Positions 36,156 to 62,118 of a stretch of DNA of 64,000 nt are shown here, in pieces. The notes below the pieces were generated by a model that saw nothing but the letters and a program-made list of their open reading frames with translations, was not told where the DNA came from and did no database searches. The stretch covers positions 60,816 to 124,815 of the forward strand of contig NMRA01000211.1 of the NCBI GenBank assembly GCA_002633005.1, in the 5' to 3' direction. The DNA is from Phoronis australis. Taxonomy: Eukaryota; Animalia; Phoronida. Every line of letters starts with the position of its first letter. Within the stretch, counting starts at the first letter, position 1. The position numbers and the translations under genes were made by a program.

Positions 36156-36158
36156 CTA

Positions 36159-37378: not shown

Positions 37379-37380
37379 TA

Positions 37381-37939: not shown

Positions 37940-38333
37940 GCTGTTGCACAGCCAAATGACCGGCCAATCGTTGAGCCCTGTTAAGCAAGGCTTTTCCTCA
38001 ACAGACCAATCACAACGCTCTGTTGAGCACAGCTTTTCCTCAACAGGGCTCAACCATTGGCCGATCACATGACGTCAAGACTTAAAATGGCGGCTTCCTG
38101 TCACCAAGTCCTTGCTTCAAAACTTTGAAGTCGAATAGCGTCGAAAATACGTAAGTAAGGACGTCAATTTTTGTGCAGATGTGGGAAAACCAAGTGTAGA
38201 ACAAGTGTGTGAACTTTAACTTTAGTCGTTGCCGCCAGATTTTGAGTTATTTAACAAAGTTGTGCCTCTTCCGGTGAATTAGTTCATTGCCATGGATTGG
38301 ATACACCGGCTGACCGGCTTGGCCGTAAATTAA

Positions 38334-40168: not shown

Positions 40169-41775
40169 TTAAAATTGCAAATATTAGCGAAAGTACGCAA
40201 AGTTGGATTCCTTCATTTGAGTGATCGTGAGTGAGATGGGGTCAGCTAGGTTAACTGAGCGTAGTCAGTTTTGTCTTCATTTCCTCAAATTTGGTGAAAT
40301 TAGACGGTTTCCGCTCACTTCCGGTTTCAGTGCCGAATTGTCAAGACATTTTTGATAGGCCTACGAATTGAAAACTGTTTGTTATATGGTTTGATGTGCA
40401 CCTTATTTCAATTCACACAGGATACTCGTTCGTCGTGTTCCCGCGTGAAGTAAGTAATTCCTACTACATATATATTTGCAAGTTCCTTGATATACAACAC
40501 TATGGAATACAACTGACTAAAATAGTCTTGTTTATCAAGGATTGATCTCAGGCTTCATTTTCGGAGCGCTCCATGCGCTCAGGGCGCATTCAAAGATTTT
40601 TAATCTGCGAATTCAGTTTCCTTAGCAAGAAAGTGTAAATATTTTACTACAATTTTTACCCATTGTAGCTGTAATGGTCCATTTTTCCCACGGCGTGTGA
40701 TTTTGTAAAACGATCTTAGAGTTTTTAATACTTTCCCTGATTCTCGCTAATTATTATTTCCTAAACCGATTTTGAAAATTTCCCTTTTTCCGAATCTTAT
40801 GAACTGAATTTCATGGAAAAAACAAGGTTTCCAATTTCTGTGTTTTCTTTTAGTGTACATTTTTGTAAGACTTTTCTGAAAGATGTGTTTGATGATGTAG
40901 GAACGCTATTCCACACAGGACACCTTTTTCTCCAGGATCATCGCCTTCGGTCATACAGGTGGGCGTCGATTATTTTAACTTATTACGTACCACAACAAAT
41001 GATAATGCCTTACTGGGAATATACCCAACAGAGTATTTTTACCCATTCGAGTATTTCTGACATATTCTTGAAGGAAATTCAGTACAAGCGAAAAAAAAAC
41101 ACTCAGATCGGAGTGACGTCGAAGAGCCCTTCACCGCGACGGGCCTAAGGTCGGGCGACGCCGAGGCCAGGAAATGAAATTCAGAAATATTTTAATCTTA
41201 TGAATCAATTATAAGTATATATTCTACAGAATGTCACTTTTTTAATCAGCTTTTTACCGAGGACTCCCCGGTCCGGATGCACTCCACGGCAGTCAGGGGC
41301 ACGATCCTACTTAGCTAACGGGATTCCTCCCCGCAAGTAGAGAGAGAGAGAGACAGAGAGCGCGAGACAGAGGGTGACGGGTTTATTAACATAAGTAATA
41401 TTAGCTCATAATACAGTTTACAGAGTACAATAAAACAAACAAAAGCATGATCACAACCGGCAAAGTAGTAGGCCATATGTGCACAAGCCTACTGACCGGC
41501 GACTGATTTGAAGTAAATCTAATTACAATTCATTTACCAATGTCTAACATAACAATGGCAATTGACTAAAATCATTACATTATCACACACGTAGTGAATT
41601 TATATTTTTAGGCTTATATTACAACTGTGCTTTGCCGTTTTCGTTTGGGAAGAAATTTCACAGGGGAAGAAATTTCATGCCTTAGACGTGAAATAACTTC
41701 CCGTCAATACCGCGCATGCGCAAAAGGGTCAGAATGGGAAGAAATTTCACGGGGAAGAAATTTCACGCGACACCG

Positions 41776-41926
41776 CCTCCCGTTCAGTAACGTTAGGACC
41801 TAGCTTAAAAGCAAGACTTTGCGAGATTACGCGAGATATTGCCATGTATTTTAAATAAGAGCACGTGACCTTGACTAGATTTTGGCTAGGTTCTAGCGTA
41901 GGTCCTAGCGTCTACTGAACGCACGC
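41776..41926. mobile_element. 151-bp Harbinger-like MITE (inverted sister of 39370-39520)
   Basis: Reverse-complement similarity, same length, CCG duplication. It is part of a larger insertion (~40337-41926) absent from copy B. Confidence 0.75.
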
Positions 41927-42241
41927 CCGGCTGCGTCGACGGACGCTTTTTATGCAGTTTTAAACTAGCGAGATGTCGGCTAATTCTTTTTAAGACACTC
42001 GCTTATGGGTTGGCACCGATCCATCATTATGTCTGTGATCAAGCAACACCAACAGCACCAAAGTTGGATTCCCCAAAACACAAAATCCTTTCGTAAACGT
42101 TGGCACTGTTTACTCACTTATCAGCGATCAGCTGATTTCTGTTATGTACAATGTCGATGGTTTTTGTGTGTTACAATTATTTAAGTACTAAGTTGACGAG
42201 TTTTGTTAAAGTACAGTATCGTGCTATTGTTGCAGGTCAGG

Positions 42242-45200
42242 ATGTACAAATGTAATATCTGTGGCAGAAAGTTTGGTGTCAAGTCAACCTTGACTCGTCA
42301 TATGAAAATTCATGAAGACCCGAAAGGCTTCAAGTGCGACCAGTGCGCAAAGTCGTTCACTCTTATGCAAAACCTCGTGGAACACACAAAGTTTCACCAG
42401 CGTCCCAGTATACCGTTATACAAACCCGGTGAGGCACAGCTTTGTTGCAGTGAGGAAGCTAAAAGTGTGGCCAAACTTCCTAGCCAGCCCGTGGATGCAG
42501 TGTGGTTGACGCCGCAGACGGCTGAGGCCACTGCAAAAAAAGCGAACCATCCAGATCTCTGGAGAGAGGAAATTGTCTTAACATTTGGAAAGTACGCCGG
42601 CCAAACCTACAAGTGGCTTTTAGAGAACGACGTTGGCTGGGTTGTGTGGCTGTTGGATGCATTCTGTCATGACGGCGAGAAGAATGATTTTCTGAATTGG
42701 CAGAAAGACCAACTGTTGCAGTATGCCAAATCGTTTGAGGCTGTTGTCGTGCACCTTGAGAAACGACGACAGGTACACTTTGAAAATATGATCCTGTTGC
42801 ATTGAGATTCGAACAATTAAATAGTTGTAGTGTATTTTGCACCTGCGATGTTCTACATAAAGTCTAAACACAATAGAAGTCGTTGGAAAATATTATTGGT
42901 TTCGTAACACGTGAACATTAACTCTAAGATTAACAGTTTTCCAGTATTATTTTGTTTTAATCAGGAACAGTTTGTTATACGCGTGTACTTACTTTTGCAG
43001 AAACGCATCGCGGAGGAAACTAAGTCCACACTGGTTTCTGATTTCTCAGCAGATGATCCTGGATATGTGGCGAATGCTGAGTTGCTAGGTCATGCTGGTA
43101 AGCACAATAGGCATGTTGCGTAGACTGATGTGAATGTTGTCAAAGATACTTCATACTTATGTCTGTGTATGTTCTGACTATGACATCACCTTAAGACTGT
43201 TTTATCCGTAATTAGTTACTGTTTTTAGCCTATAACAGTGGTGCTGGCTCTGGCTCATAACTCAAAATGGATACACTGACTTATGCAAATATTTATTTTT
43301 CTGTTAAAGAGGAGACGCTCGAAAAGTCGGAGGTGTCTGTGTCGACACAGATGGCGAAACTCAAAGACATTTTGCCATCCACCTCATCTTCCCCCCAACC
43401 TGTCATTGCTCCTGAAGTTGAACTGTCAACGGACGAATCCCTTGTGATTGAAGGGTGGCAGAAGTCATGGGAAACGTTGCCGTCCAAAGATATGCCATCA
43501 GCACCAAACATGACGTGGTTTAAGACCAGTAGTTTGTATGGCGTATTCGGAGAAACGAAGTCGTACAAGAACGCCAAGGGTGAGGTGGTCCCCAGAAAGA
43601 CCTTTAAGAACCAGATTGACATTCACCCTCCACCTCTACCTACAGCAATCACGTCACATGTTCCTAACATGATGTTGTTTTTTACCACGTGTATTTTTCT
43701 GGCGGCCGGTGGGAGTGATGGAGGCGAAAGTGAAGTGCCCCAATAGTAACTGCCCAGCTCCACCCGAGAGCTTCCTCATCAAACACGGTTTTGGCAGTGC
43801 TGCTCGGCAGGTTTGTGGTATGCAAAATTACTACACTCTGTTGACAGAACGCCTCGTCTGCACCCACTGCAAGCAGATACGCCACGCCGCTGAGCATGAT
43901 AGTGAAAGTGAGGACCACGGATCTCCGCCGCAACAGTACAGGTGGCATGCACACAGCCCGAGAATACTCATGAACCTCGCCCCAGCTCTACGCAGCATGT
44001 TTCCAGCTATTCTGTGTGGAAGACGCTCAGTTGATAAGTATGTCGCCACACTTCTAGGTGATCGTCTTAACGCCATTTCCATGGCAAAGGTGCAGCGTCT
44101 TCTGCAACAGGGACACGACGAGTGGTACACAGAACGGAGGGACCTGTACCAGACACTCCTGTACCAAGCTCACGCTTCGTCGTCGTCATCGTCACAGTCA
44201 GGCATTCTATCATTCATCAAACCATCCGGCAGCTACACTCCCCCACTCCCTCAGACGCCACTGCCTTCTGCCCGTTTGCTGCGACGAGCTCACCTCCTCA
44301 TGGAGATGGAGAGGATTCCCTCGTACAGAGCTTCGATTCTGAGTGTGACGGGAGAGATTCTTTGCATAGATAGAACCAGACAAGTTAGCATATATGTCAA
44401 CTTAACTGACTCATTTGACTATAACGTAATGTTTTTCCTAATTGATAATCTTTGAACAATATTGGCAAGTATTTTTGGATTTCTTTTCGCATAGTTCTCT
44501 TTGATGGGGAGTTTTTGATATCTGTGTTGCGAACGTTATTTTGTTGTTGAAGTTTCAGATCCTAAAGAAAATCTACGGTGATGGGCAAGGAACGTTACAG
44601 TATGTCACCAGTGTTTTAAATGAGTGGGGGCAGTTCTTGACAACGGTTGTGGTGGCGTCGGAGTCGGAAGGGTCTTACAACCGTATGGCGCGCGGATTGA
44701 TTGCCCGTTTCAAACGAGCCAATGTATTGGCTCCCAAGGTGCTCTACGTGAACAATAACTGTTGCTGGTGAGTTCAGAACTGCTGGCCTCATTTTTTTAT
44801 AGAAACATATTCATATTGTTTTACAAAATGGGCTGTTAGTACATATTTATATCTTTGTATTTAGTGATGGTGGAACCTCGTGGTATGAAACTCTGTTCGA
44901 AGACTGGATCAAGGAGGGTATGGTTGTCCGGCTCGACATCCGCCACTGGCTCCATAGCTGGGATGGCGTAGTCATCAAGCAGAGCCACTCTAAATACGGC
45001 GTTTTTATAAGTGCGATGGCGGGGGCACTGCTAGCATACAACAAAGAGGACGTATTGCAGGTTGCCAGAGCAGTACGCCTGGGCAATGAAGACCTCTACT
45101 CGGGCTACAGCGACGACCAGATGTTGCCTTTTATCAAGCCTCATCAGCTCAAATCTTACGTGCGGCGAATAACGCGTGGAGTAGAAGTAAGTTAGCTGCA

Positions 45201-48200
45201 GTAAACTTGCCACATTAGAATCACGGTATTGTTTTTACTGCTCAATGGGTGCAGTGTTTTTTAAGTAATGCTAAAGTGAGTTGTTCGTATGTTGTTAAAT
45301 CTTGCAGGAGACAGCATGTGAAATCGAACGAATCCTCGATGAGTTCAAGGGACCCGCGGGCTTGGACGTGGATGGGATACCCCTGTTCAAGTCCCTTGAG
45401 GCGGTCGAGTGCCGCTGGACAACAGCTAGCAAGCACTTGAGCTGCATGCAGGTGGGTATCCTTTGAGTGCATAGTCTATTCGGCTATCCAGTACCCCATG
45501 CTTATTGTATAGCCATCTGTTCTCTCAAAACTATCCACTCTGTGATGATGCTGGTTTAATCTTGTTTGTAACTTTTCTAACTGCCCTCCAGGATCCACAA
45601 GGAATCCAACTGTATGTGTGTACAAAAGTGGTGACAGTTAACGGTGTTGAGCTGAAGAAGTATAGATGTCGAAGGGGCACCAATTCACTGGAGGGTCTCC
45701 ATTCCCACTTGTACAACGCTGTGCCATTGCAACGATGCGGCATTACACCGTTCCAGGTAACCACACCTGTCTGGCTATCGGACGTGTTAATAGAGAAAGA
45801 TTTCTCCTTTTATCGTAATCTATTTTGCCCAGGGTACGCCACGAGCTATGTTGCAGAGTAAAACAAGAGGAGGATTGCGAATATTGTCATTTATTATGAC
45901 GTAATAGATAAAACTAACTAAGACTCTGCAAGATGGGCATGCAAAAAACGCCCACAGGCGTGTACAATGAATAGCCCTGCAAGAGGGAACAAAACAAAAA
46001 AACTGCCTGAAGGGCTTAAAGGAAAAGTACAGAACATGAAAACAAAACTTGAAAAAAAAAAAACCTAAGGAAATGTATACGAGCAAAGAGAAAGTGGAAC
46101 CGACACCCGGGATGGGGGGTGGGGAAAAAATGAAGAGAACGAACGTAGGTCTTGTAGATGACGAGGTAGGTGGCTGAATGAGAGACCACGTTGAACAGAA
46201 CAAAGGAAATATGGGCGTCCAATCAGGAGTTGAGTAGAGAAACGTATGAATACAAAAGTAGGCCCTAGAGGCTATAAATAGAGATGAGTAATGCAAAATA
46301 AACCCTAAGGACTGGTCTCAAAATAAAGAGACAAGTGTCAAAATAATGACGATAAATGCATTTAACAAGTTAAATTTAATTTATCGTAATCTATTTTGCC
46401 CAGCCCTTAAAACTTTCCCTTGTGCGCTACATGCAATATCTCAGTAGGACATCTTATGTAGAATAAGTGCGTGGTTAACGTTGTTCTTTGTAGCTGTACA
46501 TTGAAGAATTTCAATTTGTTGGAAAAACATATCCTTCTATGTTGCCGTGTGTTTCAGGTGTACCTCATTGCGTTCGTGGTACAGTGGAACCAGCGAATGG
46601 AGTCGCTTCGTGTAGCTGGAGGTCGGGGCCGACTGACGTCGTGCCTTGATCCAAGGCTCATCCAACGGCTCAACCACCACTCTGAGGTGCTCTTTGGGAA
46701 GAGCCACCTCTTTGAGCCGAACTTCGCCGCCCCATGCCGTACCCACAGCAGTACACCGACCCAGAAGAGGAGGAACTCTTGGGCGTAGAATACGCATACT
46801 GTCAGTCTACCGACTTCAAATCCAAGGAGTATTATGTCGAGAAGGGTAAGGAGACCTGTGCTGCATAGCTGAATTTGCCACTGAATACTTTCCGATAGAA
46901 ATTAGCTATGCCAATTAGTGATAGCACTGCTTTGTAACAACGCGCTCTTTACGGTATATCGTAAGAATACTTTAATTGCCATTTCAGTGGACGAAGAGCA
47001 ATCGCATCAAGAGCCAGACGAGAGCGAGTCAGAAGACGAGGGCGTAGAGGTTGAAGAGGCGGTGGTTGACGATGACCCCATTGATCACGTGAGCTCCAAT
47101 GCTGCACTCACGACTTCAGAAATGGTCACTGCAGAGGAAAGTCCCGCACTCCAGGATGTTCTAATGTCTGTTCGACGCCTCCATCTTCCCGGCTTTGAAG
47201 AAGTTGAGGCATTGGCACTTGCACTGTTACAACTAGTAGACGGTGGTGATACGCACATGATAGCTCCCGATCTGCGGAACAGAATTCGCGTCGCTGCGTC
47301 CTCGATTCACGACCACGACAAGAGCGCGCGGAACTTCACCAAGAAGTACGAGTCCAAGTGGGGCTACACGCTATTTGGAAGATGTCTGGGGCCGGAGTCT
47401 GCGGAGAACAATGCGGCTCAGAAGACCAAATTCGGTTGGATGCGATATGCCCAGGCAGCACAGATCTCAGAAGACTCGCGACTCCTGTATCTGGTTGTCA
47501 AGATGTTGAAGAACCGACCTGCTAATCAACATTCGTCCCCAACAAAGATTGCCAATGCCATAAGAGGAGGTTACAAGAGAATTGTCGACCGTGTAAGGGA
47601 TGACCCGGTACTTTGCTCCGTTGACATTCCACTGCCTAACATCAACTCCAAGTCTATCACAGTATTTCTGAGCAAGCTGGAAAAGAAGGCGAATTACATG
47701 GCTACAGCTCAGCCAAAAGTGGTTCCTCACAGAAAGGTTTTTTCCAGTCAGGCCATGCCAGATGCGCCTAGCCTCCCGACTTCACTACCACTGCCAGATC
47801 GACCAGAGGTTCAGTATGTAGCGTTGGAGCACAGTTCTGGTAAAAGACATCTGGCCAAGGAGAGAGTTGACGTCGACGAACCAAAGCCCGTGCGTGTCAG
47901 ATCTGGGTCAGCTGCAGTGGCTTCGTCTGCTCCAGTTCTGGTCGTAGTTCCTGCTCAGCCACTGGCACCTTCTGTAAAATTAGAGCAGCCCTCAACGAGC
48001 CAGGGGTATTCTCGGTTTGTGTTGACTGCACCTCCGCCACTGCTTCCCACGAAACCGGTTATGCCTAGCAAGTCCGATAAACCCTGCGCTGCCTGCAAGC
48101 AACCAAAGTGTGGTGGGTTACGTAAGCGATACACGCCCTCAAAGGACAAGACGTCGGGCAGTCGGCAGAAAATATTCACTTTCTGTCCCACCACTGGGAG

Positions 48201-48297
48201 GTCGACTACACCAGGCTTTGATGAAGTCTACGACAGCTTCCAGAGTTTCAAGGAGTGTGTGGATGCGGAGCTCCTGAAAAGAAAGAATGCATGTTGA
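42242..48297 (+). pseudogene. Dada transposase pseudogene (2 N-terminal C2H2 fingers, DDE core), 9 coding exons
   Basis: Exons 42242-42772, 43001-43097, 43310-44383, 44559-44767, 44865-45186, 45308-45451, 45592-45756, 46558-46845, 46988-48297. Motifs TFGKYAGQTYKWLLENDVGW, LCIDRT, LYVNNNCC, RLDIRHW, RCRRGTNSLEGLH. Frameshifts at ~43690 and ~46731 relative to the paralogue. Confidence 0.88.
45833..46379. mobile_element. ~550-bp insertion with 24-bp flanking direct repeat
   Basis: TTTATCGTAATCTATTTTGCCCAG at 45809-45832 and 46380-46403, inside a transposase intron. Confidence 0.65.
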
Positions 48298-48866
48298 TAG
48301 GTTTATCCTAAGTCCGATTGTATGTACATCAACAATTGCAGCTCAGTAACTTTGACTTGACTATTTTTTGGTGTAGTTGAGGCTGTTTCAAAGGGTATTA
48401 TTATCAATAGCTAAAACTGGCGATTTAAGAGCATCTTTGTTTATTTTTAGTTCACAACGGAAATGATTTGCTGCATGCTGGGTAAGTTCATATGTTGTGT
48501 GTACCTGTGTGCCTAATGCTACTTAAGCCTCGTACTCTTGAAGCTTTGCCTTTCTCCATGCTTTTATAACATTCCATGTCATACTCAGGGTGTGGTCTTT
48601 CCTTGTTGCTTTCCTGTAACTTCTGTCATTGCTATTGTTTAACCAAACTTGCTTTATTAGTCTCTTGGTTGTTGTCCCTATTGCTTATGTATGGCCTGCA
48701 CATTGTTAGAAGTGACTTCTGCTTAGCAGTGCATTTTTGTATTTTTTCAAATATATAGTCTAACGATTCTGTGCCTTGTCCTGTATGTGTTTTCGACTAT
48801 TTTTCTGTTTGTAATGTGCATTATGTCTGTTAGCCTTATACCTTTGAACTGTGTGTGTTGTAAATA

Positions 48867-48979
48867 AAGACTGAGATAACACAGTCGTATTGAACTATTA
48901 TGTTCACTTTTTAAAAATGGCACAACGTGATGTTATGGATCGAATCCTGGTGACTGACCGTGCCTGTTATCTCGGTTTT
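48867..48979 (+). ncRNA. Putative pseudoknotted structured RNA motif of Dada 3' end (family 1 copy A)
   Basis: Closing helix 48867-48881/48965-48979, hairpin TGAAC/GTTCA, GGCAC/GTGCC four-way junction and CAGTC:GACTG pseudoknot; covaries with 61648-61757. AATAAA at 48863-48868. Confidence 0.7.
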
Positions 48980-49319
48980 CAGTTTGTTCACTAATTACAT
49001 CATATTTTTGAAATGGAAACAATTATTTGCTCAACTTATTTTGAAATGTGGAATGTCGAGTGTAATAAAAGTGTAATAAAAAGTGAGATAATGCAAAAAA
49101 CAGCCTTAAACTGAAGCGAGTGTGAGGTTAGATGGCCAACGTCTACTTTTGCTACAAAAATCCCCGTTTTTTGGTGTTTTTTTGGACTTTTTTGCCCTTT
49201 TCTGCGATCACTGAAGTCAGCGCTCCCTCAGGGGATCGGGGAAACTAGTATAACCACCCCCAGGGGTCGTTGCCCATTCCCAGGCTGTTGCACAGCCAAG
49301 TGGTTATACCGCGCTCGAC

Positions 49320-49526
49320 CGGCCAATGGTTGAGGCCCGTTGAGCGCGGCTTCTTCCTCAACGGACCAATCAGAACGCTCTGTTGAGCGGAGTTGATCGG
49401 TGGCCTTCCTCAACGGGGCTCAACCATTGGCCGATCGCGTGACGTCAAGACTCAAAATGGCGGCTTCCTGTCACCGAGTTCTCGCTTCAAAAGTTTGAAG
49501 TCGAATAGCGTCGAAAATACGTAAGT
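49320..49526 (+). promoter_or_regulatory. Putative Pol II promoter and non-coding first exon of the Dada transposase (homologues 37960-38157, 54560-54700)
   Basis: CCAAT, CCAAT, ATTGG and TGACGTCA occur in the same order and similar spacing in both families; family 1 adds AAAATGGCGG and a donor ac|gtaagt. Confidence 0.6.
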
Positions 49527-51708
49527 ATGCACGTCAATTTTTGTGCGGATGCGGGAGGACAAAGTGTAGAACAAGTGTGTCTACTTTAATTTTTGTCCCT
49601 GCCACCAGATTTTGAGTTATTTAACAAAGTTGTGCCTCTTCCGGCGAATTAGGTCATTGCCATGGATACGCCAGCTGACAGGCTTGGCCCTAAATTAAAA
49701 TTGCAAATATTAGCGAAAGTACGTAAATTTGGATTCCTTCCTTTGAGTGATCGTGAGACTGGGTCAGCTAGATTAATCGAGCGTAGTCAGTTTTGCCGTC
49801 ATTTCTTCAAATTTGGTGAAATTAAACCGTTTCCGATCACTTCCGGTTTTAGTGCCGGCTGCGTCGACGGGCGCTTTTTATGCACTTTTAAACTAGCGAG
49901 ATGTCGGCTAATTCTTGTTTAGACACTCGCTTACGGGTTGGCACCGATCCGTCATTATGTCCGTGATCACGCAACACCAACAGCACCAAATTTGGATTCC
50001 CCAAAACACAAAATCCTTTCGTAAACGTTGGCACTGTCTTCTCACTTATCAGCAATCAGCTGATTTCTGTTCAGTACAATGTCCATGGTTTTTGTGTGTT
50101 ACAATTATTTAAATGCTAAGTTGACGAGTTTCGTTAAAGTACAGCGTCGTGCTATTGTTACAGGTCAGGATGTACGAATGTAATGTCTGTGGCAGAAAGT
50201 TTGGTGTCAAGTCAAACTTGACTCGTCATATGAAAACTCACGAAGACCCGAAAGGCTTCAAGTGCGAACAGTGCGGCTCAGAAGACCAAATTCGGTTGGA
50301 TGCGATATGCCCAGGCAGCACAGATCTCAGAAGACTCGCGACTCCTGTATCTGGTTGTCAAGATGCTGAAGAACCGACCTGCTAATCAATATTCGTCCCC
50401 AACAAAGATTGCCAATGCCATAAGAGGAGGTTACAAGAGAATTGTCGACCGTGTAAGGGATGACCCGGTACTTTGCTCCGTTGACATTCCACTGCCTAAC
50501 ATCAACTCCAAGTCTATCACAGTATTTCTGAGCAAGCTGGAAAAGAAGGCGAATTACATGGCTACAGCTCAGCCAAAAGTGGTTCCTCACAGAAAGTTTT
50601 TTTCCTGTCAGGCCATGCCAGATGCCCCTAGCCTCCCGACTTCACTACCACTGCCAGATCGACCAGAGGTTAAGTATGTACCGTTGGAGCACAGTTCTGG
50701 TAAAAGACATCTGGCTAAGGACAGAGTTGACGTCGACGAACCAAAGCCCGTGCGTGTCAGATCTGGGTCAGCTGCAGTGGCTTCGTCTGCTCCAGTTCTG
50801 GTCGTAGTTCCTGCTCAGCCACTGGCACCTTCTGTAAAATTAGAGCTGCCCTCAACGAGCCAGGGGTATACTCGGTTTGTGTTGACTGCACCTCCGCCGC
50901 TGCTTCCCACGAAACCGGTTATGCCTAGCAAGTCCGATAAACCCTGCGCTGCCTGCAAGCAACCAAAGTGTGGTGGGTTACGTAAGCGATACACGCCCTC
51001 AAAGGACAAGACGTCGGGCAGTCAGCAGAAAATATTCACTTTCTGTCCAACCACTGGGAGGTCGACTACACCAGGCTTTGATGGAGTCTACGACAGCTTC
51101 AAGAGTTTCAAGGAGTGTGTGGATGCGGAGCTCCTGAAAAGAAAGAATGCATGTTCATAGGTTTAACCTAAGTCCGATTGTATGTACATCAACGATTGTA
51201 GCTCAGTAACTTTGACTTGACTATTTTTTTAGTGTAGTTGAGGCTGTTTCAAAGGCTATTATTATCAATAGCTAAAACTGGCGATTTAAGAGCATCTTTG
51301 TTTATTTTTAGTTCACAACGGAAATGATTTGATGCATGCTGGGTAAGTTCATATGTTGTGTGTACCTGTGTGCCTAATGCTACTTAAGCCTTGTACTCTT
51401 GAAGCTTTGCCTTTCTCCATGCTTTTATAACATTCCATGTCATACTCAGGGTGTGGTCTTTCCTTGTTGCTTTCCTGTAACTTCTGTCATTGCTATTGTT
51501 GTTTAACCAAACTTGCTTTATTAGTCTCTTGGTTGTTGTCCCTATTGCTTATGTATGGCCTGCACATTGTTAGAAGTGACTTCTGCTTAGCAGTGCATTT
51601 TTGTATTTTTTCAAATTTTTAGTCTAACGATTCTGTGCCTTGTCCTGTATGTGTTTTCGACTATTTTTCTGTTAGCCTTATACCTTTGAACTGTGTGTGT
51701 TGTAAATA

Positions 51709-51821
51709 AAGACTGAGATAACACAGTCGTATTGAACTACTATGTTCACTTTTTAAAAATGGCACAACGTGATGTTATGGATCGAATCCTGGTGACTGAC
51801 CGTGCCTGTTATCTCGGTTTT
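51709..51821 (+). ncRNA. Structured 3' motif, copy B
   Basis: Near-identical to 48867-48979; the single change lies in a hairpin loop (TATTAT>TACTAT). Confidence 0.65.
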
Positions 51822-52098
51822 CAGTTTGTTCACTAATTACATCATATTTTTGAAATGGAAGCAATTATTTGCTCAACTTATTTTGAAATGAGTGTAATAA
51901 AAATGTAATAAAAAGTGAGATAATGCAAAAAACTGCCTTAAACTGAAGCGAGTGTGAGGTAAGATGGCCAACGTCTCCTTTTGCTACAAAAATCCCCGTT
52001 TTTGGTGTTTTTTTGGACTTTTTTGCCTTTTTCTGCGATCACTGAAGTCAGCGCCCCATCTGGTCACCCGGGAAACTAGTATAACCACTTAGGTGGGG

Positions 52099-54202
52099 CT
52101 TGAATGCTCCAAAAACGCAAAATCCTTTCGTGAACGTTGGCACAGTTCATTCATGTTGTCCTCGATCAGCTGATTTCTGCTCTCAACCAAATTTAGTACA
52201 TTACGTGGGCGGTGCATCATAGGGGACTACGTGAGGGGGCTATAGTCGCCGTGCTCCCCCGTCGTCTATGGGCGGTGCACCACAGGTCAGCCGGGGGTCT
52301 TAATAGCCCTCCCTCACCTTTTTCAGTGTTGCGTCGCCCATGCAATATCGATGCTTTTTGTGTTTTAGAATTCATTACCTACCACAAAGACCGGAAAGGC
52401 TTCAGATGTGATCCGAACTTCCTAGCCAGCCCTGTACGCAGCATACCGCTTAGGCGACAGCGAAAAAGCGAGCGGTCCAGATCTGTTTCGAAAGTACACC
52501 AGCCAAACCTACAGGTGCCTGCAGATAGGAAACGGCGTCGGCTGCATTTTGTGGCTGTCGGATACATCCTGTCGAGATGGCGAGAAGACTCGATTGTCTG
52601 GCATGGTAGAAAGACCAACTGTTGCAGTACGCCAAATCGTTCGAGACTTGTCGTGCACCTTGGGAAACGACGACAGGTCCGGTTTGAAAATATGATCCTG
52701 TTGCATAGAGATTCGTAACCTATGAACATTGATTCTAAGATTCTCATTAGTTGCAGAACTGTTATGTTTCACTTAGTAACAGATACCTGATTCATACGCG
52801 TGTATTTACCCAATCTTATTTTTGCAGAAAGGCGTCGTGGAGGAAACTAAGACAACACCAGTTTCTGATTTCTCAACAGATGATCCTGGATATGTGGCGG
52901 ATGTTGAGTTGCTAGCTCATGCTGTTAAGCACAATAGGCACGTTGCACCGACTGACTTGAATGTTGTCAAAGATGCTGTATACTTATGTTTATATATGTT
53001 CTGACAACGTTGTCTTCTTTTTATCCGTAATTAATCCGATCCAACATACTGTTTAGCCGAAAACTGTCTCGAATGGCCAATAGTGCTGGCTGCGATTGAT
53101 AACTCGAAATGGATGCACTGACTTATTCAGATATTTATTTTTCAATTACAGAGGAGTCACTCGGAAAGTTGTGTGTACCCAGACGACATTGAAAGACATC
53201 CTTCCGTCCACGTCATCTTCGTCGCAACCTCTGACTTTATTACAGTACATGAACTGCCAACCGATGAATCGCTCGTTGTAGAAGGATGCCAGAAGTTGTG
53301 GGTAGTGTTGCCATGCATACAGCCCGAGGATACTCACGAACCTGGCCTCAGCTGTATGCAGTATGTTCCCAGCTATTCTTCGCGGCAAACGTGCCATCGA
53401 TAAGTACATTGTCCAATGCTGTGTCCATGACAAAGATACAGAGACTTCTACAGGGACATTAGGAGTGGTACACAGAACGCAGGGACCTGTACGAGACTCT
53501 CCTGTACCAAGTTAGCGTATATGACTCACTTGACTATAAGATAACATGTTTCCTCATGGTAATCTTTGAACTGCGGCATTGACAACTCGTTTTAGACTTC
53601 TTTTCACATAGTTTTCTTTGATGGGGAGTTCTTGGTATCATTCTTCGAATATTATTTTGTTGTTGACATTTCAGATTGTCAAGAAAATCTACGGCGATGA
53701 GCAGATGATGTCGTTCCTCAAGCCACATCATCTCAAGTCGTGTGTGCGTGCGGAGAATAACCTGTGGTGTTGAAGTAAGTTAGCTGCAGGGAAGTAGTGT
53801 TACCAATATGCTATCACACCAACTTACTAAGTAATTAATATATATCATGGATACATAACGCGTTTCATGACAGTTGTATCTATAAATGAACGCCGAGGTA
53901 ACACAGTCAGATTGAACTATTATGTTCACTTTTAAAAAAAGGCACAACGTGATGTTATGGATCGAATCCTGGTGACTGACCGTGCCTGTTATCTCGGTTT
54001 TAAGTTAGTTCACTAATTACACCACAGTCTTTTTAATAATTGCTTTTCCTCTTCAATTTTGAGAAAAAATATATCTCATACCTTGTTGATATTTATTTAT
54101 CTTAGATAAAGTCATGGAAAGGCTGTAAAATAATTTACTAATGACATTATAGTTGAGGAAAATTGGGGAAACTAGTATAACCACCCCCAGGGGTCGTTGC
54201 CC
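52099..54202 (+). mobile_element. Heavily deleted, chimeric Dada copy C
   Basis: Patchwork of segments homologous to 42060-45200, followed by the 3' motif (53892-53998), a family-2-like tract (54030-54130) and the family-1 right end GGGGAAACTAGTATAACCACCCCCAGGGGTCGTTGCCC. Confidence 0.8.
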
Positions 54203-54439
54203 AAAAAAATATTATACACTTAAGAAAAAACTACAAATGAATTTTCAGAAATTGTGAGGTAAGACCTCCCCAAGGTCAAATATAACACATTTTTCATCAG
54301 AAGTATGTTTTTTGGCTTCTTTTTGGCTTCTTTCTGCCTACTTTTCTCTTGCCTTGGGGCTGATCACCCTGATCACCATTTTGCGCCCTCTGTCGTGATC
54401 CCCGGGAGTTACTGTTTCTACTTAGGTGGGTCATGACCC
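54203..54439 (+). mobile_element. Right-end remnant of a third Dada-like family
   Basis: Ends TTTCTACTTAGGTGGGTCATGACCC immediately before ATTCCC of the 5S fragment, in the same register as the other right ends. Confidence 0.6.
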
Positions 54440-54512
54440 ATTCCCAGGCGGTCACCCATCCAAGTACTAACCGGGCCCGACGTTGCTTAACTTCGGTGAT
54501 CGGACGAGAACC
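54440..54512 (-). rRNA. 5S: 5S rRNA gene fragment (~nt 30-102), interrupted at GGGAAT
   Basis: Minus strand GGTTCTCGTCCGATCACCGAAGTTAAGCAACGTCGGGCCCGGTTAGTACTTGGATGGGTGACCGCCTGGGAAT is the canonical invertebrate 5S sequence; truncated, so non-functional. Confidence 0.95.
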
Positions 54513-55466
54513 AGTATTCCCAGGCGCTCACCCATCCAAGTACATAACCGGGCCCTGACCAGCCAATCGCTGAGCCCTGTTAAGCACGGCATTTCCTTAA
54601 CAGGCCAATCAAAATGCTCTGTTAAGCAAAGGCCTTGCTTAACAGCGCTTAACCATTGGCTCCTTCAGCTGACGTCAAAATCCAATATGTCTGCCTCTTT
54701 CGATCTAGTCTCCGCTTCGAATGTTTGCCGTCAAATTACATCTAAAATACGTCTTTTTCAACAGTAATACTTAGCCAAGATTGTCAGTACCACATGAAGA
54801 ACAGGTTGGTAATCTCTGATTTTATTCTTTTGTCGTAGATTTAGAATAATCTGTAAGAATGTGTTACTTCCGGTAATTCTTGGGCGTCGCCATGGATACC
54901 GCTGCTGACCGAATTGCCGGTTGAATAAAATTGCAAAATTCTCCAAAAATACGCCAAGATCGAATGTTTCACTTGAATCGAAATGACATGCGGACAGTTA
55001 GGAATGGTCTGTGATGTACGATTCGTCTTTATTTTCCCAACTTCATTTAAATTGAACCGTTTTTCTCTTCACTTCCGGTCGAAATGCCGGCTCTCGGAAA
55101 ATACCCAATTTACCCAATATTAAACGCTCCAGTTCTCGGCGAATTGGTTTCAAAAACATTGATTAGGGGCTTGAACCTATGCATTGGTGTGTCTGTGATC
55201 AGGAACACACCTCATCCGCATATTTATTACCCCAAATGACGCCAGTTTTTTTCGTAAACATTGTCACTGTTCACCTAGCTGTCGGCGATCAGCTGATTCC
55301 TGTTAGAGGTCAAACTCCAATGGTTTGAAGACGTTTCAGCTGTTTATCTACTCGTGCACCCAACCCATGCACATGCAACCCATGCGCTTAAGCACTGATT
55401 GTTTGCTCAGGCCCACATTAAGTGTACTTTTGCCTCTTCCTAAAATGGTGTCAATTTTTTTTAGTC

Positions 55467-58400
55467 ATGTACAAGTGCGCCACATGTGGGAAATCATTTT
55501 CCCAGAAAGGCCATCTTCGAGAGCATGAGAAAATTCATACTTATCCGAGACTGCAGTTGTACAAACCTGGAGTGGCTAAACTGCAGTGCACAGATGCCGC
55601 AAAAGCGATTAAAGCGAGGACGAGCGTAACGTCTGTCGATGTGAAGTGGTTAGAGGAGAGGTCTGCCATCGACGCCGCCAAGGCCATAGCTGGAGAGCAA
55701 TGGTTGTCTGCCGTCATCATGACCTTTGGACAGTATCGAGGTCAGTCGTTCCAGTGGTTACTAGAAAACGACGTTGGATATGTTGTTTTCATGCTGGGAG
55801 AGTACTTCCTGAAGGGGGACCGAAACGAGTGCACCAGGTGGGTCAAGGATCTCCTGAACCAGTACGCAAGCCAGTTTGCTTCAGTGGCATGTCATCTGGA
55901 AAAAAAGGTAAGTTTCTGTAATGTAGCTACAAATTAATCGCTGATGTTTTGCCAAATTGGATAGGAACAACAACGTTGTGAACGTCCGTATTTGAGTATG
56001 GTACTGAGTGATGAAGGAACGACTGTCGTGTCAAGTAATCTTAAAATCGACACATACAACCATGAGTCTTAAGACTATTTACCATCGATTAATCAATTAC
56101 CAATACTTCTGTTTAGAAACAACTGAAGAAAGCGCCACCTACTTCGACGATCAGCAGGCCCCCTCCCGACGAGTTCTCAGAAGAGCACATCCAAGACAGT
56201 GAGCTCTTGTCACTGGCAGGTATGATGTAACCTATCGTCATCTTGGAAGCTAGTTGTCAACTTCGTTTTGAATGTGGGTTAATTAATTCCCTAATGTTCG
56301 TATTTGTAACATCGATATGGATATCATTAGCTTTTTACATTCACGTTAGCGATTACGGTAGGTTTGTATGAGTATGCTGCTGCACTTCCTTAACTGAGCA
56401 CGGGCTGTTTTGTGACCAAGATATGATAACCTCTTGTGATAAAAAACTAATACAACAAATCCTAATATTGCTCAATTCTTGAGTGTTAAACTCTGCATGT
56501 GATGCCGTTATTTTTTCTCCTTAGAAAACATACTGGAACAGTCAGAAGCACCTGTCGCTACATGTATTACCAGTGTGCCAGCTCCTGAAGACACAGACAA
56601 AGTGCCAACTACTCCCATCCCCGAAGTGACCAGCTCTGTTACATTGGAAGGTTGGCAGAAGCAGTGGGAGGATGCGGCTTCCCCAGCACGAAACAACGTC
56701 AGGTGGATGAAGGAGAGTGAAGAATACGGCTTGTTCGGTCCGCCTAAAGCATACAAAAACGCTAAAGGGGAAACATTGTTTCGCAGAACCTTCAAAGACA
56801 AGATGTGGTTTCACCCCCCTCCCATCCCGACATCCATCAAGTCGTCCATTCCTAACATGCTGGGCTTCTTCACGACACCAGTCTTCCTGTGGAGACCTGT
56901 AGGACTATTGGAAGCCAGGGTGAAATGTCCCAATCGTACCTGTCCTGCGCCTCCAGACACTTATCTTGTAAAGCGGGGATACGGATCATTTCCGAGGCTA
57001 GTTTGCGGGACACACTCCAACTACATCTTGTTGTCAGAGCGACTGTTCTGCAGCTTTTGCTATGACCTTCGTGGCCAGCATGAGGAGTCAAGTGATGAGG
57101 AGGGAGAAGCCTCGTCAGGTACAAAGCAGCAGCAGTACAGCTGGCACTCGCACAGTTCTGCAATCCTGATGACCCTCGCCCCTGCCATTCGGAACCTCTT
57201 ACCAGCCATTGTATGCAGCAAGAGAGCTGTTGACAAGGATGTCGTGACCATGCTGAGTGACAGGATCAATGCAGTTTCAATGACGAAAGTACAAAGGTAC
57301 AGTGTGACGAGTAATGATAACATAGACACCCGTGATAGAAATGACAGTATTTAAAGAATGTTGTAATTATTCTACACACACTTAACTTGTTCAGTAATTA
57401 ATGTGCTAATTAATGTTTTACATGTTTCCATTTCGAACGGAAAAGCTTTAACCTTTGATAGCGTGATAGAATTGTTTGTTCCCTTGTACTCAGAACTATG
57501 AACATGTGTGGTATAACTTTGTCTCTAACTTACGAGCGAATCATATGTTCGTCCAGGTTGCTGAAGCGAGGCCACGACGAGTGGTACATTCAAAGAAGAG
57601 ACCTCTACCAGACGCTTCTTTATACCGCACACAGGTCGAAAGAGGGGATCTTGCAATACATCAGGCCAGCAGGATTTTATACGCCTCCTCTGCCACAAGC
57701 TCCTCTGCCGGGTCCACGCTTCCTACGACGGGCTCACCTGTTGATGGAAATGGAGTTAATACCCGCCTACAGAGCATCTATCACCAGCGTCACTGGCGAA
57801 ATTCTCTGCATTGACGGGACTAAGCGAGTACGTTTCTTTTCAGCAAAATGGATCACCACTTGTGGCACTTTTAGTAATTACTGATGCTGTTATCAGTTTT
57901 TTGTTCGTACACACCTTTTACTCAATTATATGACCACTTCATGTTAATTGCAGGTGCTCAAGAAAATTCGTGGTGACGGGCAAGGTACGATGCAGTACGT
58001 AACGACCGTGCTGAACGAGCTGGGCCAAATTTTGACGACCGTGGTAGTGGCCTCAGAGTCGGAAGACTGCTATGCCAGGATGGCCAAGGGTCTAGTTGCA
58101 CGTTACAAGCGGGCCAATGCGACTAGTCCAAAAGTGCTCTACACTGACAACAACTGCTGCAGGTGGCTTCTAGAATGCATTTTAATCTATAATCCTTGTT
58201 ATTTTTTAAGTTTACGTGGCATGTGCCTGATAATAAGCTGCATTTCTTAATTAATGTGAACTCGTACATTTACAGTGACAAAGGGTCTTCATTTCTGGCC
58301 AGACTGTTTTCGGAGTGGGTGGATGAAGGGATGGCTATTCGTCTTGACGTTAGGCACTGGCTTCACAGATGGGACGCTGTCATCATAAAACAAACTCATG

Positions 58401-61081
58401 CCAAGTACGGCTCATTTATGAGTGCTCTCGCTGGGGCTGTGCTCGCCTATAACAAAGACGACATGGTGGAGTTGATTAGGGCTGTTCGCAACGGCAACAA
58501 AGACCTCTCAGAACTCAGCGACTCTGAAGTCATGAGCCATTTGAAACCCTATCAGCTGAAGTCTTACGTTCGTCGTATCACACGTGGTGTAGAGGTTAGT
58601 GCTTAAGAATATGAAATCGAGTCAAGTAATTTATAATTTTAATGTCTTTTGCGAAACATGACCATTGAAGACCAGTTTTAACAATGCTAGAAATTGTTAT
58701 AGGAAACGGCAGGGGAAATCGAGGCGATTCTGGAGGAGTTTAAGGGTCCTGCTGGGCTTGACATCGACGGCATCCATCTGTTTAAGTCGAGCGAGGCAGT
58801 GGATTACCACTGGATGACTGCTTCCAAACATCTTGGATGCATGCAGGTAACATTTTGCGCAAATGTTTCATGTGGAACTGCTCTTTCAAAGAATGATCTA
58901 TGCACGTGTGGGCTATGTCTGCATTTACACACTTTAGCTCCATCCGCTTAATTGAATGAATTTGTTTTCTCTCGCTTCAGGATCCACATGGCATTCATCT
59001 GTACGTGACGACCAAAGTAGTCTCCGTCAATGGTACTCGGCTCAACAAGTACAGATGTCGCCGTGGCAGTAATTCCCTGGAGGGATTACACGCCCACCTC
59101 TACAATGCCATCCCCTCTAAGCTGTGTGGTGTTCAGCCGTTCCAGGTTAATGCGTCATTGGTTTTGCTATTACAATATAATTGTCAGTATGATTCAAACC
59201 TAAATGCGCAAGGTATCTTTGCATACAGTATCTACTGGTTTTTTATATAATAGGTCCACTGATGTACCTCTCCTACATTTCAGGTTTATCTCTTGTCTTT
59301 CGCCGTTCAGTGGAACAGCAGGATGGCAGAGCAGGCTGTAGCTGGAGGTCGGGGCAGTGGTACGTCGTGCGTAGATCCACGTCAGGTTCAGCGGGTAAAC
59401 CAGCAGGCTGAGGTTCTTTTTGGGAGGGAGCATGTCCTCGAGCCCAACTTCTACGCACCCATGCCCATTCCGCAGAAGTACGATGATCCGTCAGAGGAGG
59501 AGCTGCTCGGCATCGAGTATGCGTACTGTCAAGCCAGTGACTTCAGTGCCACTCACTTCTACATAGAAAAGGGTTAGTCGTGTTGCATCATTCCTTGACT
59601 GTGCAACATTCGTCAATTTTAACTGCTTGAGTACGTTGTGTTTATTTATTGGCTACTGAATTGGAAATAACATTAAGTTGATACAGTGGTAGTCGACTGC
59701 ATTGTTAAAGACAGAACTTGTAGCAATACTCAGTCGTATATACAAAATACTTTCATAATATTACGAGCAATATTTTACAGCCGAAGAAGAGCAGTCGCGT
59801 GAGGAAGAGGAGGACGAGGAGGGTGACGAAGCGGACAGCTCAGAAGATGAGGGCATCGAGACTGAGGACGGCGATGAAAAAGACCCAATCGATGCCATGA
59901 ACCAGTCGCACGCTTCACTTTCCTCTGCCGAAATGGTGACTGAGGTGTCGAGCCCGGCACTTGAGGATGTCATGATGACGCATCGCCACTTGCATCTGCC
60001 CGGCCTTGAGGAAGTCGAGTCTTTGGCCACGCTCCTGGTGTCCTTAGCGTCTGATGACGGCAAGCTGTTAGTACCCGCGGATGTGAGGTCGAAGATCTGT
60101 GACGCAGCTAGTCACTTACATGATCATGACCGGTCAGGCAGGAACTTCGTAAAAAGATACGAGTCCAAGTGGGGATACACACTGTTCGGACGGTGTCATG
60201 GTCCAGAGTCTGCAGAGACCAGTGCGGCACAAAAAACGAAGTTTGGGTGGATGCGGTACGCTCAGGCCGCCACAATAACCGAAGAGTCACGACTGCTGTT
60301 TGTGGTGATCAAGCTACTGAAACACAGTCCTGCGTGCCAGATGTCGTCCCCAAGGAAAGTGGCCAATGTGATTGTACACAAGTACGGCAGAATATGCGAT
60401 CGCATCCGTGACGATCCAGCGATCAGTCGTCTCAGACTTCCGCTGCCGAAAATAAACGCCAAGTGCGTCACTACATTTATATGTAAGGAAGAGAAGCGGG
60501 CAAACTTCGAGGCTACAGTCCGCCCAAAGGTTACTCCTCACACCAGAGTTGTGTCCGATCAGGTGATGCCTCCAGCACCTAGTCTGCCGGATTCAATGCC
60601 ACCACCGAATCGCCCTCAGATACAGTATCCAGTCCTGGAATACAAGACTGGCAAGCGACACTTGCAGAAGGACAGGCTGGAGTTGGACGAGCCAAAGGCC
60701 AAAGGCAAGGCTCCCGAACCCCAAATTCTTGTTGTAGTGCCGTCACAGCCGCAATCCTCCTCTGTTCGAGTTGTTCAAGGTCCAAGCGGCCCGTCGTTTG
60801 CCTTACTGCCACCTCCCCCAACTATTATGTCACGGCCGGTACTACCAAATAAGTCAAACAAGCCATGTGCAGCTTGCAATTTGCCCAGATGTGGTGGTAA
60901 GAGGAAACGCTACACTCCGTCGAAAGACAAGGTTGCAGGAAGCCAACAGAAGATATTCACCTTTTGTCCCGTAACTGGTCGATCACTAACCTCAGGATTC
61001 CCTGGAGTTTTCGAGTCATATGAAGAATTCAAGGCCCGGGTCGACGAGGAACTTAAGAAAAGGAGCGATTCCCTTTCGTGA
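55467..61081 (+). CDS. Dada-type DDE transposase with N-terminal C2H2 finger, 1337 aa, 10 coding exons
   Basis: Exons 55467-55907, 56117-56219, 56525-57296, 57557-57827, 57954-58162, 58276-58594, 58703-58846, 58981-59145, 59284-59572, 59781-61081. All GT-AG, 4014 nt, no stop or frameshift found by hand. Motifs CATC..H..IH, TFGQYRGQSFQWLLENDVGY, LCIDGTK, LYTDNNCC, RLDVRHW (DxxH), RCRRGSNSLEGLH, C-terminal CAAC-x4-C..FCP. Confidence 0.9.
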
Positions 61082-61647
61082 TCTTAGAGTAGTCTACTGT
61101 ATATTGTATTGTGGAAAGATGTCATACTCGTAGTTGTTTTTTATAACATATGCATGTTTGTTTTTTAGATTGATTGGCTGCTAAAGGAAATTTTCTGTGG
61201 TAAGTTCAGGTGTTGTGTGAATCTCTCCCTGTTTGCTCCATGTCAAACTTCTAGGCACTATGCTTAAAACTCCTAACTGCCACGGGCTTTTCACACTCTG
61301 CTGAATAACCAAGTAACCTTTGTTAATACTTGTGTGGTTGATCAAGCTATTGCTTTGAGATAACATCTTGTTAAACTTTCGTGTGCACTGATTCTTTTGG
61401 TGGTGGATTTTCTGCTCTGCTAATTTGTGTCTGTGTTGTAACCGTGTTGAATCTGTTGTGACAGTGTATATTTGTTTCGTCACATTTCTTATAACCAATA
61501 AGTCTCGCTAAAAACTGCTACATTTCACTGAATGTTTGTATTTCTAACGCTTATTTGTAACGTTGCTTTATCCCTTATAAGTTTGCTACTGCTTTTTCTG
61601 TTTGTAATGTACATAATGTCTGCCTGCACTGTGTTGTTTGTAAATAA

Positions 61648-61757
61648 AAGCTGAGGTAACACAGCTATATTGAACGATTATGTTCACTCTTTAGAAAGGC
61701 ACAACGTGATGTTATGGATCGAATCCTGGCGGCTGGCCGTGCCTGTTACTTCAGCTT
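61648..61757 (+). ncRNA. Structured 3' motif, family 2 version
   Basis: Same helices as 48867-48979 with compensatory changes; AATAAA at 61643-61648. Confidence 0.7.
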
Positions 61758-62044
61758 GAATTCTTTTTTAAATAATTGCTTTTCCTCTTCAATCATGAGA
61801 AACAAATATATCTCATACCTTGTTCATGTGTATTTATCTTAAATAAATTAATGGAAAGGCTGTAAAAATCAACCAACTTTAATAATTTAGTGCATTACAC
61901 AATATATTTGTAATAATATGGTAAAGAAAGATTGTCAACATCAAGCACCTTGGCTTGGGCCTGCTTTGGTCATCTAGAAGCAGCGCCATCTTCTGGCGCG
62001 TGCTTTCAAGCATGACCCATATGTACTTCCAGGGGCACCTGCCC

Positions 62045-62118
62045 GTTCCCAGGCGGTCACCCATCCAAGTACTAACCGGGCCCGACGTTGCTTAACTTCG
62101 GTGATCGGACGAGAACCG
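62045..62118 (-). rRNA. 5S: 5S rRNA gene fragment (~nt 29-102) forming the right flank of the intact Dada
   Basis: Identical to 54441-54512 over the shared length. Confidence 0.95.

What the first reader, a model, noticed from the sequence alone, without database searches (positions are those of the whole stretch)
54516..62118. Intact, possibly active 5S-rDNA-targeting Dada transposon in an invertebrate
Seen: a 7523-bp element inserted antisense at 5S nt ~97-102 (GGGAAT, at the edge of the C-box). It has a 6-bp duplication (ATTCCC/GTTCCC, one mismatch), 9-bp sub-terminal IRs equidistant from it, and an uninterrupted 10-exon 1337-aa ORF retaining D (CIDGT), D (YTDNN), DxxH and E (SLEGLH). Established: Dada elements target multicopy small-RNA genes, make 6-7-bp TSDs and have only short sub-terminal IRs. 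As I recall, 5S-targeting families were described from ray-finned fish. Inference: an invertebrate 5S-specific lineage, and a candidate natural site-specific integrase for a highly conserved multicopy target.
Basis: partly seen in the sequence, partly recalled or inferred. Interest (0 to 1): 0.82.

Follow-up and report, generated by a model that had tools for sequence, protein, structure and literature searches.

The report
5S-gene-targeting transposon beyond fish
An intact 7.5-kb jumping gene of the Dada-5S family, described so far from fish, sits at the same spot of a 5S ribosomal RNA gene remnant in an animal that is very likely an invertebrate, which widens a known site-specific transposon lineage, although whether this copy still moves is untested.

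Summary
In detail: a 7523-bp element (54522-62044) between ATTCCC and GTTCCC, 9-bp inverted boxes 16 bp inside each end, ten GT-AG exons giving an open 1337-aa DDE/DxxH protein. It is not a separate invertebrate lineage. It belongs to the published fish Dada-5S lineage: same target site (5S nt 97-102, antisense), 56% full-length identity to the Labeo Dada-5S protein, the herring Dada-5S right-end box, seven matched splice junctions, and a clade with 100% support that also holds amphioxus, echinoderm and brachiopod proteins. Corrections: the left flank is not a 5S 3' end but a second 5S fragment; the element is the last of five same-direction Dada-5S copies or remnants. Other right-end|5S junctions exist in this species and in a second invertebrate-type 5S array. 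Activity is not shown: read depth suggests about one locus, and RNA reads are unspliced, probably antisense, and from a diverged sister copy. The left end copies the target (35 of 36 bases), which suggests how targeting and tandem arrays arise. No earlier Dada note was found in the scan. New member of a known kind.

The parts
54522..62044 (+). Element A: full-length Dada-5S transposon body, 7523 bp, antisense to 5S
54516..54521 (+). Left hexamer ATTCCC (5S nt 102-97), target-site duplication
62045..62050 (+). Right hexamer GTTCCC (one mismatch), target-site duplication
54522..54559 (+). Left end that copies the 5S target downstream of the site (35 of 36 bases, two 1-base insertions); holds the box AAGTACATA at 54538-54546
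62020..62028 (+). Right sub-terminal box TATGTACTT, 16 bp from the hexamer; same 9 bases and position as in herring Dada-5S
55467..61081 (+). Transposase gene, 10 coding exons: 55467-55907, 56117-56219, 56525-57296, 57557-57827, 57954-58162, 58276-58594, 58703-58846, 58981-59145, 59284-59572, 59781-61081; 1337 aa; C2H2 finger, DUF6729 with CCCC motif, DDE with DxxH, C-terminal Cys cluster
62045..62118 (-). 5S rRNA fragment nt 29-102 (right flank), cut off by a very high-copy repeat from 62119
54440..54515 (-). 5S rRNA fragment nt 30-102 plus three bases; 54511-54515 is a microhomology shared by 5S nt 27-31 and 103-107 (one mismatch)
52109..54439 (+). Element C: decayed Dada-5S copy; right end at 54439 abuts ATTCCC and 5S; holds a B-type right end at 54202 that abuts non-5S sequence
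49282..52088 (+). Element B2: internally deleted family-B copy; its left end follows B1's right end across ATTCCC (49276-49281); right end lost its last bases
37940..49275 (+). Element B1: second Dada-5S family (65% protein identity to A in the core), nine coding exons 42242-48296 with two frameshifts, interrupted by other insertions
37383..37939 (+). Remnant of the right part of an A-like copy, ending at the TATGTACTT box and joined to B1's trimmed left end

Best explanation
This is an intact member of the Dada-5S family of DNA transposons, sitting antisense at nt 97-102 of a 5S rRNA gene remnant in a likely invertebrate host, and its DDE transposase likely picks that site by reading the DNA itself. 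Shown: the anatomy, the catalytic residues, the family membership, and repeated use of the same site. Inferred: the transposase binds an AAGTAC-type box 16 bp inside each element end and the same box 16 bp beside the site in the 5S gene, and joins the right end to the ATTCCC hexamer. Because the left end is a near copy of the 5S sequence beside the site, each inserted element likely offers a new target, which would build the head-to-tail array seen here (B1 right end, ATTCCC, B2 left end). The many 5S copies would make the insertions cheap for the host. Odds by step: Dada-5S member 0.95; direct sequence reading through the box 0.7; this copy able to transpose today 0.35.
For: Published Dada-5S target ATTCCCAGGCGGTC is the site here (PMC8869645). 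Full-length identity 56.5% to P0003, whose core matches the translated Dada-5S_LaRo sequence read by eye in the supplement. Clade with Labeo and herring Dada-5S, SH-aLRT 100, long stem; other Dada-like proteins are 39-46% in the core against 64-73% (16 of the 17 clade rows; one gappy row 54%). Seven splice junctions matched in herring L004 directly. D525, D594, D623, H626, E787 are kept in 37, 43, 44, 42, 44 of 46 aligned relatives, most misses being gaps. Fold of a 73%-identical fish stand-in: best matches ISCth4 (IS256 family) and retroviral integrases (E 4e-4; Z 7.4, rmsd 5.1, 229 aligned). Independent right-end|5S junctions at the same hexamer: a B-type end in DNA runs X1 and X2 and RNA run X6, an A-type end in 2 contigs of X1, L001 in another invertebrate-type 5S array, and L002-L004. 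Left ends match the target better than right ends in 3 of 3 pairs (35 vs 22, 27 vs 17, 24 vs 23 of 36). A versus its sister copy: 18 synonymous, 10 non-synonymous codons, dN/dS about 0.2.
Against: Only 3 of the 6 right ends in the window abut the hexamer; two are trimmed and one complete end (54202) abuts non-5S DNA. The left flank of A is not a 5S 3' end. The junction search could only find 5S-joined ends, so it cannot show off-target copies. No splice joint in 3 RNA runs; the reads come from a diverged sister copy and are probably antisense. Family B's box differs from the 5S box in its second half, so strict box identity is not needed. The fold model is a stand-in with mean pLDDT 61.6 and Z under 8. 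The difference table used for dN/dS was 35 of the 40 rows shown, of 161.
Confidence: 0.8

Rival explanations
1. Same identity, but copy A is a silenced or stranded survivor in a graveyard of Dada copies: recent enough to be unbroken, no longer moving.
For: Contigs identical to A have depth 13-30 over most of its length, like single junction contigs (20-27), so about one locus (depth is a rough guide only). Neighbours are frameshifted, deleted or decayed. RNA over the gene is unspliced and on the strand of the 5S reads, i.e. probably antisense; almost none on exons 1, 2 and 10. The activity sign used in PMC3706591, several copies over 99% identical, is not seen.
Against: All 1337 codons, 18 splice sites and both boxes are intact; purifying selection since the split from the sister copy. 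Only about a fifth of each RNA run was read, from other samples than the DNA and of unknown tissue.
Confidence: 0.55
2. Targeting comes from tethering to the host's polymerase III machinery (TFIIIA on the 5S internal promoter), not from direct reading of the DNA.
For: The site lies at the edge of the 5S internal control region (position recalled, not tested); all Dada targets are small-RNA genes (PMC3706591).
Against: Insertion is exact to the base across hosts; related Dada families have similar target sequences in unrelated genes, such as U1 and 5S (PMC8869645); the target box recurs in the element's own ends; an element landed on another element's left end, which has only part of the promoter (49276).
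Confidence: 0.12
4. A domesticated host gene, like dDada of carps.
For: About one intact locus; purifying selection.
Against: Both ends, the hexamers and all catalytic residues are kept, whereas dDada often lost the two D and has DxxQ (PMC8869645); no sense transcript seen.
Confidence: 0.04

Closest known systems
Dada-5S of ray-finned fish (Dada-5S_LaRo, _ClH, _NoCe, _OrMe, -A/-B_CaAu; Kojima 2022, PMC8869645)
   Same: Target ATTCCCAGGCGGTC, antisense orientation, box 16 bp inside the ends (herring has the same right 9-mer), 56% full-length and 67-72% core protein identity, matched intron positions, one clade.
   Different: Invertebrate host; left end far closer to the target (35 of 36 against 24 of 36 in herring); an extra intron (57297-57556) absent from herring and from family B; lies in an array beside 5S fragments, whereas L004 sits in a whole 5S gene.
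Dada-U6 and Dada-U1 (Kojima and Jurka 2013, PMC3706591)
   Same: No terminal inverted repeats; short sub-terminal repeats also found in the target at the same distance; tandem copies separated by the hexamer; copies with one irregular flank; Dada-U6 also spans several animal phyla.
   Different: Other target genes and other box sequences (CAGAGAAGA; ATTGCAC).
IS256-family ISCth4 and IS30 (PMC7780238, PMC9333248)
   Same: DDE fold with a helical insertion and C/DxxH; best structural match of the stand-in model; end-spacer-end junctions with a 6-bp spacer; IS30 inserts next to its own ends.
   Different: Bacterial, true terminal inverted repeats, no strict single target; the pathway is untested for any Dada.
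Other 5S-targeting elements: Mutsu retrotransposon of zebrafish (named in PMC3706591, PMC10946416); fungal Starships (scan notes only, unchecked)
   Same: Use of 5S genes as a multicopy target.
   Different: Reverse transcriptase or tyrosine recombinase enzymes, unrelated to this transposase.

Membership tests
Dada superfamily | DDE transposase with DxxH after the second D | tested here: met
   D525, D594, D623xxH626, E787, conserved in 37-44 of 46 aligned relatives
Dada superfamily | Homology to described Dada transposases | tested here: met
   56.5% over 1326 columns to P0003, matched by eye to Dada-5S_LaRo in the supplement; 66.6% core identity to L004, whose ends match Dada-5S_ClH
Dada superfamily | [quoted passage not shown] | tested here: met
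   C316, C321, C357, C360
Dada superfamily | C-terminal CCHC motif (2013 description) | tested here: inconclusive
   A has C1267, C1270, C1275, C1300 and no His there; the fish Dada-5S-type protein P0004 reads the same way; the 2013 alignment was not found in the held supplements
Dada superfamily | 6-7 bp target-site duplication | tested here: met
   ATTCCC / GTTCCC, one mismatch; the left outer flank is rearranged
Dada superfamily | No terminal inverted repeats; short sub-terminal repeats also present in the target at the same distance | tested here: met
   9-bp boxes 16 bp in; AAGTAC at the same distance in 5S
Dada-5S lineage | Insertion at ATTCCCAGGCGGTC of 5S genes, antisense | tested here: met
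   Right junction 62045; 5S nt 97-102
Dada-5S lineage | Groups with fish Dada-5S in a transposase tree | tested here: met
   SH-aLRT 100 in two quick trees, midpoint root
Dada-5S lineage | Genome-wide specificity of the family's copies | tested here: inconclusive
   No genome held; 3 of 6 right ends in the window at the hexamer; further 5S junctions in contigs
Recently active Dada family | Several full-length copies over 99% identical; sense transcript | tested here: inconclusive
   Depth suggests about one locus; no spliced reads in about a fifth of each of 3 RNA runs
Copy-out/paste-in transposons (IS256, IS30) | Circular intermediate with an end-spacer-end junction | not testable with these tools
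   Only the genomic junction at 49275-49282 has this form

The most novel reading that the evidence does not exclude
Dada-5S is an old lineage spread over several animal phyla that finds its site by treating the 5S gene as its own left end: the right end attacks 6 bp outside a 'recipient end', as IS256- and IS30-type bacterial elements do in copy-out/paste-in transposition. One reaction would then explain the base-exact targeting, the target-like left end, head-to-tail arrays joined by one hexamer, mismatched or replaced duplications and irregular left flanks. If so, element A is a working eukaryotic integrase whose target could be changed together with its end box.
Probability: 0.25. Interest if true: 0.75.

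Novelty: new member of a known kind. Interest (0 to 1): 0.42.

Why it matters
Dada-5S was described from five fish species, in a survey limited to vertebrates (PMC8869645). Finding it at the same base in an invertebrate, with close protein relatives in amphioxus, echinoderms and a brachiopod, makes it a second multi-phylum Dada lineage after Dada-U6 and suggests a very old hold on one site. The intact gene and well-defined ends give a ready test of how a DDE transposase reaches base-exact targeting; the papers read report no biochemical test of any Dada. The 42 bases at the site differ at 2 positions between this host and herring, so a working enzyme could be tried across animals. The family, the site and the tool idea are already in print, which limits the surprise.

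Tried and rejected
No whole genome is held, so copies could not be mapped. No RNA holder was listed for the stretch. A paper search with a 5S word to place the host found nothing; a host glycosyltransferase exon was at most 60% identical to anything, with a brachiopod and insects on top and fish at 50-53%, which places the host outside fish but names no phylum. Pfam has no Dada transposase model that hit the catalytic exons; only zf-C2H2 and DUF6729 passed their cut-offs. The search with exon 10 gave 167 unnamed relatives, best 54%; not used further. The careful tree did not finish; quick trees are reported. The 2013 protein alignment was not found in the four held supplements, so Dada-1_BF and other invertebrate Dada of unknown target could not be placed. 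hAT, P and eukaryotic Mutator structures did not appear among the listed fold matches; that absence is not evidence. No tRNA genes in the window. Right ends show no likeness to the 5S sequence upstream of the site. Rejected: the left 38 bases as host 5S outside the element, because they carry the inserted base that completes the inverted box, and B and herring left ends are target-like too; partial replacement by host 5S DNA is not excluded. The scan's notes held no Dada finding for this genome or sequence.

Full report
Observation. Its body runs 54522-62044 (7523 bp) between ATTCCC (54516-54521) and GTTCCC (62045-62050). AAGTACATA (54538-54546) and TATGTACTT (62020-62028) are perfect inverted copies, each 16 bp from the hexamer; a mirrored 9-mer in the first 40 bases has a chance of about 1e-4. 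Ten exons joined at nine GT-AG introns give 1337 codons without a stop, with D525, D594, D623-x-x-H626 and E787. Pfam finds a C2H2 finger in exon 1 and DUF6729 in exon 3; the other 6 of 8 exon pieces scanned pass no cut-off. Rfam finds two partial 5S genes on the minus strand and no whole one. GGGAAT is nt 97-102 on a 5S gene of L001.

The right flank is 5S nt 102-29, then a very high-copy repeat. The left flank is not the 5S 3' end. It is a second 5S fragment (nt 102-30) and three bases; the five bases before the hexamer match, with one change, a word found both at nt 27-31 and at nt 103-107. Either a deletion joined two 5S copies through that word, or the left end was joined irregularly at insertion; I cannot tell these apart. 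Contig depth of about 20 runs across this junction in DNA run X1, which argues against an assembly error, though that sample may be the source of the window. Upstream lie four more Dada-5S copies or remnants, all in the same direction: an A-like right part (37383-37939), B1 (37940-49275; two frameshifts, inserted DNA), B2 (49282-52088; internal deletion) and C (52109-54439; decayed). Of six right ends, three abut the hexamer (49275, 54439, 62044), two are trimmed, and one complete end (54202) abuts unrelated DNA.

Identity. Kojima 2022 (PMC8869645; parts 1-3 and 5 of 5 read; supplement passages and part 4 of 109) gives the Dada-5S target as ATTCCCAGGCGGTC, the site used here. The spliced protein is 56.5% identical over 1326 columns to Labeo P0003 and 54.4% to the crinoid P0005. 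Stretches of the Dada-5S_LaRo DNA, translated by eye, match P0003 and P0004. A junction pattern search of metagenome contigs gave 4 loci. L002-L004 carry the right end of Dada-5S_ClH, and L004 is a whole 8218-bp insertion in a whole 5S gene. Herring has the same right box at the same 16-bp distance. Exon-by-exon comparison with L004 matches the junctions after exons 1, 4, 5, 6, 7, 8 and 9; exon 2 gave no hit, and intron 3 is absent from herring and from B1. In a quick tree of 45 rows (43 of the 47 proteins, four partial or fused rows left out, plus A and B1), A falls in a 17-row clade with SH-aLRT 100 and a long stem that holds Labeo Dada-5S, other fish, amphioxus, Antedon, Apostichopus, Strongylocentrotus and Lingula. 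A second tree of 23 chosen rows with L004 added agrees. The base of the clade is unresolved, the root is a midpoint, and the targets of the other invertebrate proteins and of the outgroup rows were not tested. A fold of the fish stand-in P0009 (73% core identity; mean pLDDT 61.6) best matches the IS256-family transposase ISCth4 and retroviral integrases (E 4e-4; Z 7.4, rmsd 5.1, 229 aligned), a modest match that fits the known DDE class.

Host. The 5S fragments differ from the fish-type 5S of L004 and nearly equal the 5S of L001; that this is an invertebrate type is my recall. A host glycosyltransferase exon at 19085-19465 has no relative above 60%, with fish at 50-53%. The host is thus very likely an invertebrate; the phylum was not determined.

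Site specificity. Beyond the window, contigs of runs X1 and X2 (one sample) and four RNA reads of X6 (another sample) join a B-type right end to 5S at the same hexamer, and two X1 contigs join the A right end to it; these may include this very copy (5 loose-end rows were not shown). L001 has a Dada-5S-like right end at the same site in a tandem 5S array of another invertebrate-type genome, without the transposase part; its last bases closely resemble those of Dada-5S_OrMe. The main 5S contig has depth about 6000 against 20-50 for junction contigs, so targets are plentiful. These searches cannot reveal off-target copies.

Activity. For: every codon, splice site and box is intact, and A differs from a sister copy at 18 synonymous and 10 non-synonymous codons, dN/dS about 0.2, P under 2e-4 (35 of the 40 rows shown, of 161). 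Against: contigs identical to A mostly have depth 13-30, like single junctions, so about one locus. In three RNA runs (about a fifth of each read) there is no splice joint; reads cover introns, carry the sister copy's letters, avoid exons 1, 2 and 10, and have the first mate on the plus strand as most 5S reads do, so they are probably antisense. Current activity is open.

Mechanism. Kojima and Jurka 2013 (PMC3706591; parts 1-3 of 4 read) noted that the sub-terminal repeats of Dada-U6 and -U1 recur in the target at the same distance, and reported tandem copies and one-sided junctions. The same holds here, more strongly: A's left end matches 35 of the 36 target bases beside the site, B's 27 and herring's 24 (0, 0 and 10 of 10000 shuffles as good), against 22, 17 and 23 for the right ends. 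I infer that the transposase reads the box in ends and target alike, and that a left end serves as a fresh target, giving the B1-hexamer-B2 junction. A bolder reading follows from ISCth4 (PMC7780238, passages), where one end attacks a fixed distance outside the other and a 6-bp spacer works best, and from IS30 (PMC9333248, abstract), which inserts next to its own ends: the 5S gene may act as a recipient left end. This would account for mismatched and replaced duplications and for clean right but irregular left junctions. It is untested; a similar pathway was suggested for KolobokP (PMC9587614, passages).

Novelty. 'Dada-5S' occurs in one paper of the library, whose survey covered vertebrates only; four other searches (listings seen) and passages of two reviews (PMC13565253; PMC10946416) showed no invertebrate Dada-5S. 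Repbase, subscription journals and the 2013 alignment file were not seen and may hold such families. Verdict: a real, intact, new member of a known lineage, with a host-range extension and a testable targeting idea; interest 0.42.

Noticed in passing
window 37383-62118: Five Dada-5S copies or remnants of at least two families (65% core protein identity) stacked in one direction over 25 kb with no whole 5S gene; with antisense unspliced RNA from a sister copy this could be a silencing trap.
   Followed up: partly
tree (P0007, P0010, P0012, P0015): A protein of the fish Eleginops groups with amphioxus proteins (support 97-99) rather than with other fish: possible horizontal transfer or old paralogy.
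   Followed up: no
window 57297-57556: Intron 3 of A is absent from family B and from herring Dada-5S and has AGGT at both borders: a likely intron gain.
   Followed up: partly
window 45811-46403: An insertion of about 570 bp in an intron of B1, flanked by a direct repeat of about 23 bp.
   Followed up: no
window 62119-62300: A very high-copy, transcribed repeat (contig depth over 50000) joined from its interior to 5S nt 29.
   Followed up: no
window 36214-37323: Two arrays of a 21-bp unit in opposite directions (36214-36320 and 36990-37323) inside an inverted repeat 36156-37381, probably a non-autonomous element inserted in a Dada remnant.
   Followed up: no
window 33308-36010: A tandem duplication of about 1.35 kb (96.7% identical), each copy with 80-bp internal inverted repeats.
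   Followed up: no
window 18989-19543 (+) and 28852-31892 (-): Host genes: an exon of a beta-1,3-glucuronosyltransferase, and several exons encoding Cys-rich repeats.
   Followed up: partly
L004:1-8481: A complete herring-type Dada-5S insertion in a whole 5S gene, no stop in the six core segments translated; L002 shows a doubled hexamer at its left junction.
   Followed up: partly
run X6 at 54447-54481: RNA reads join a 5S-like left-end piece to family-B exon sequence, pointing to another rearranged Dada locus.
   Followed up: no
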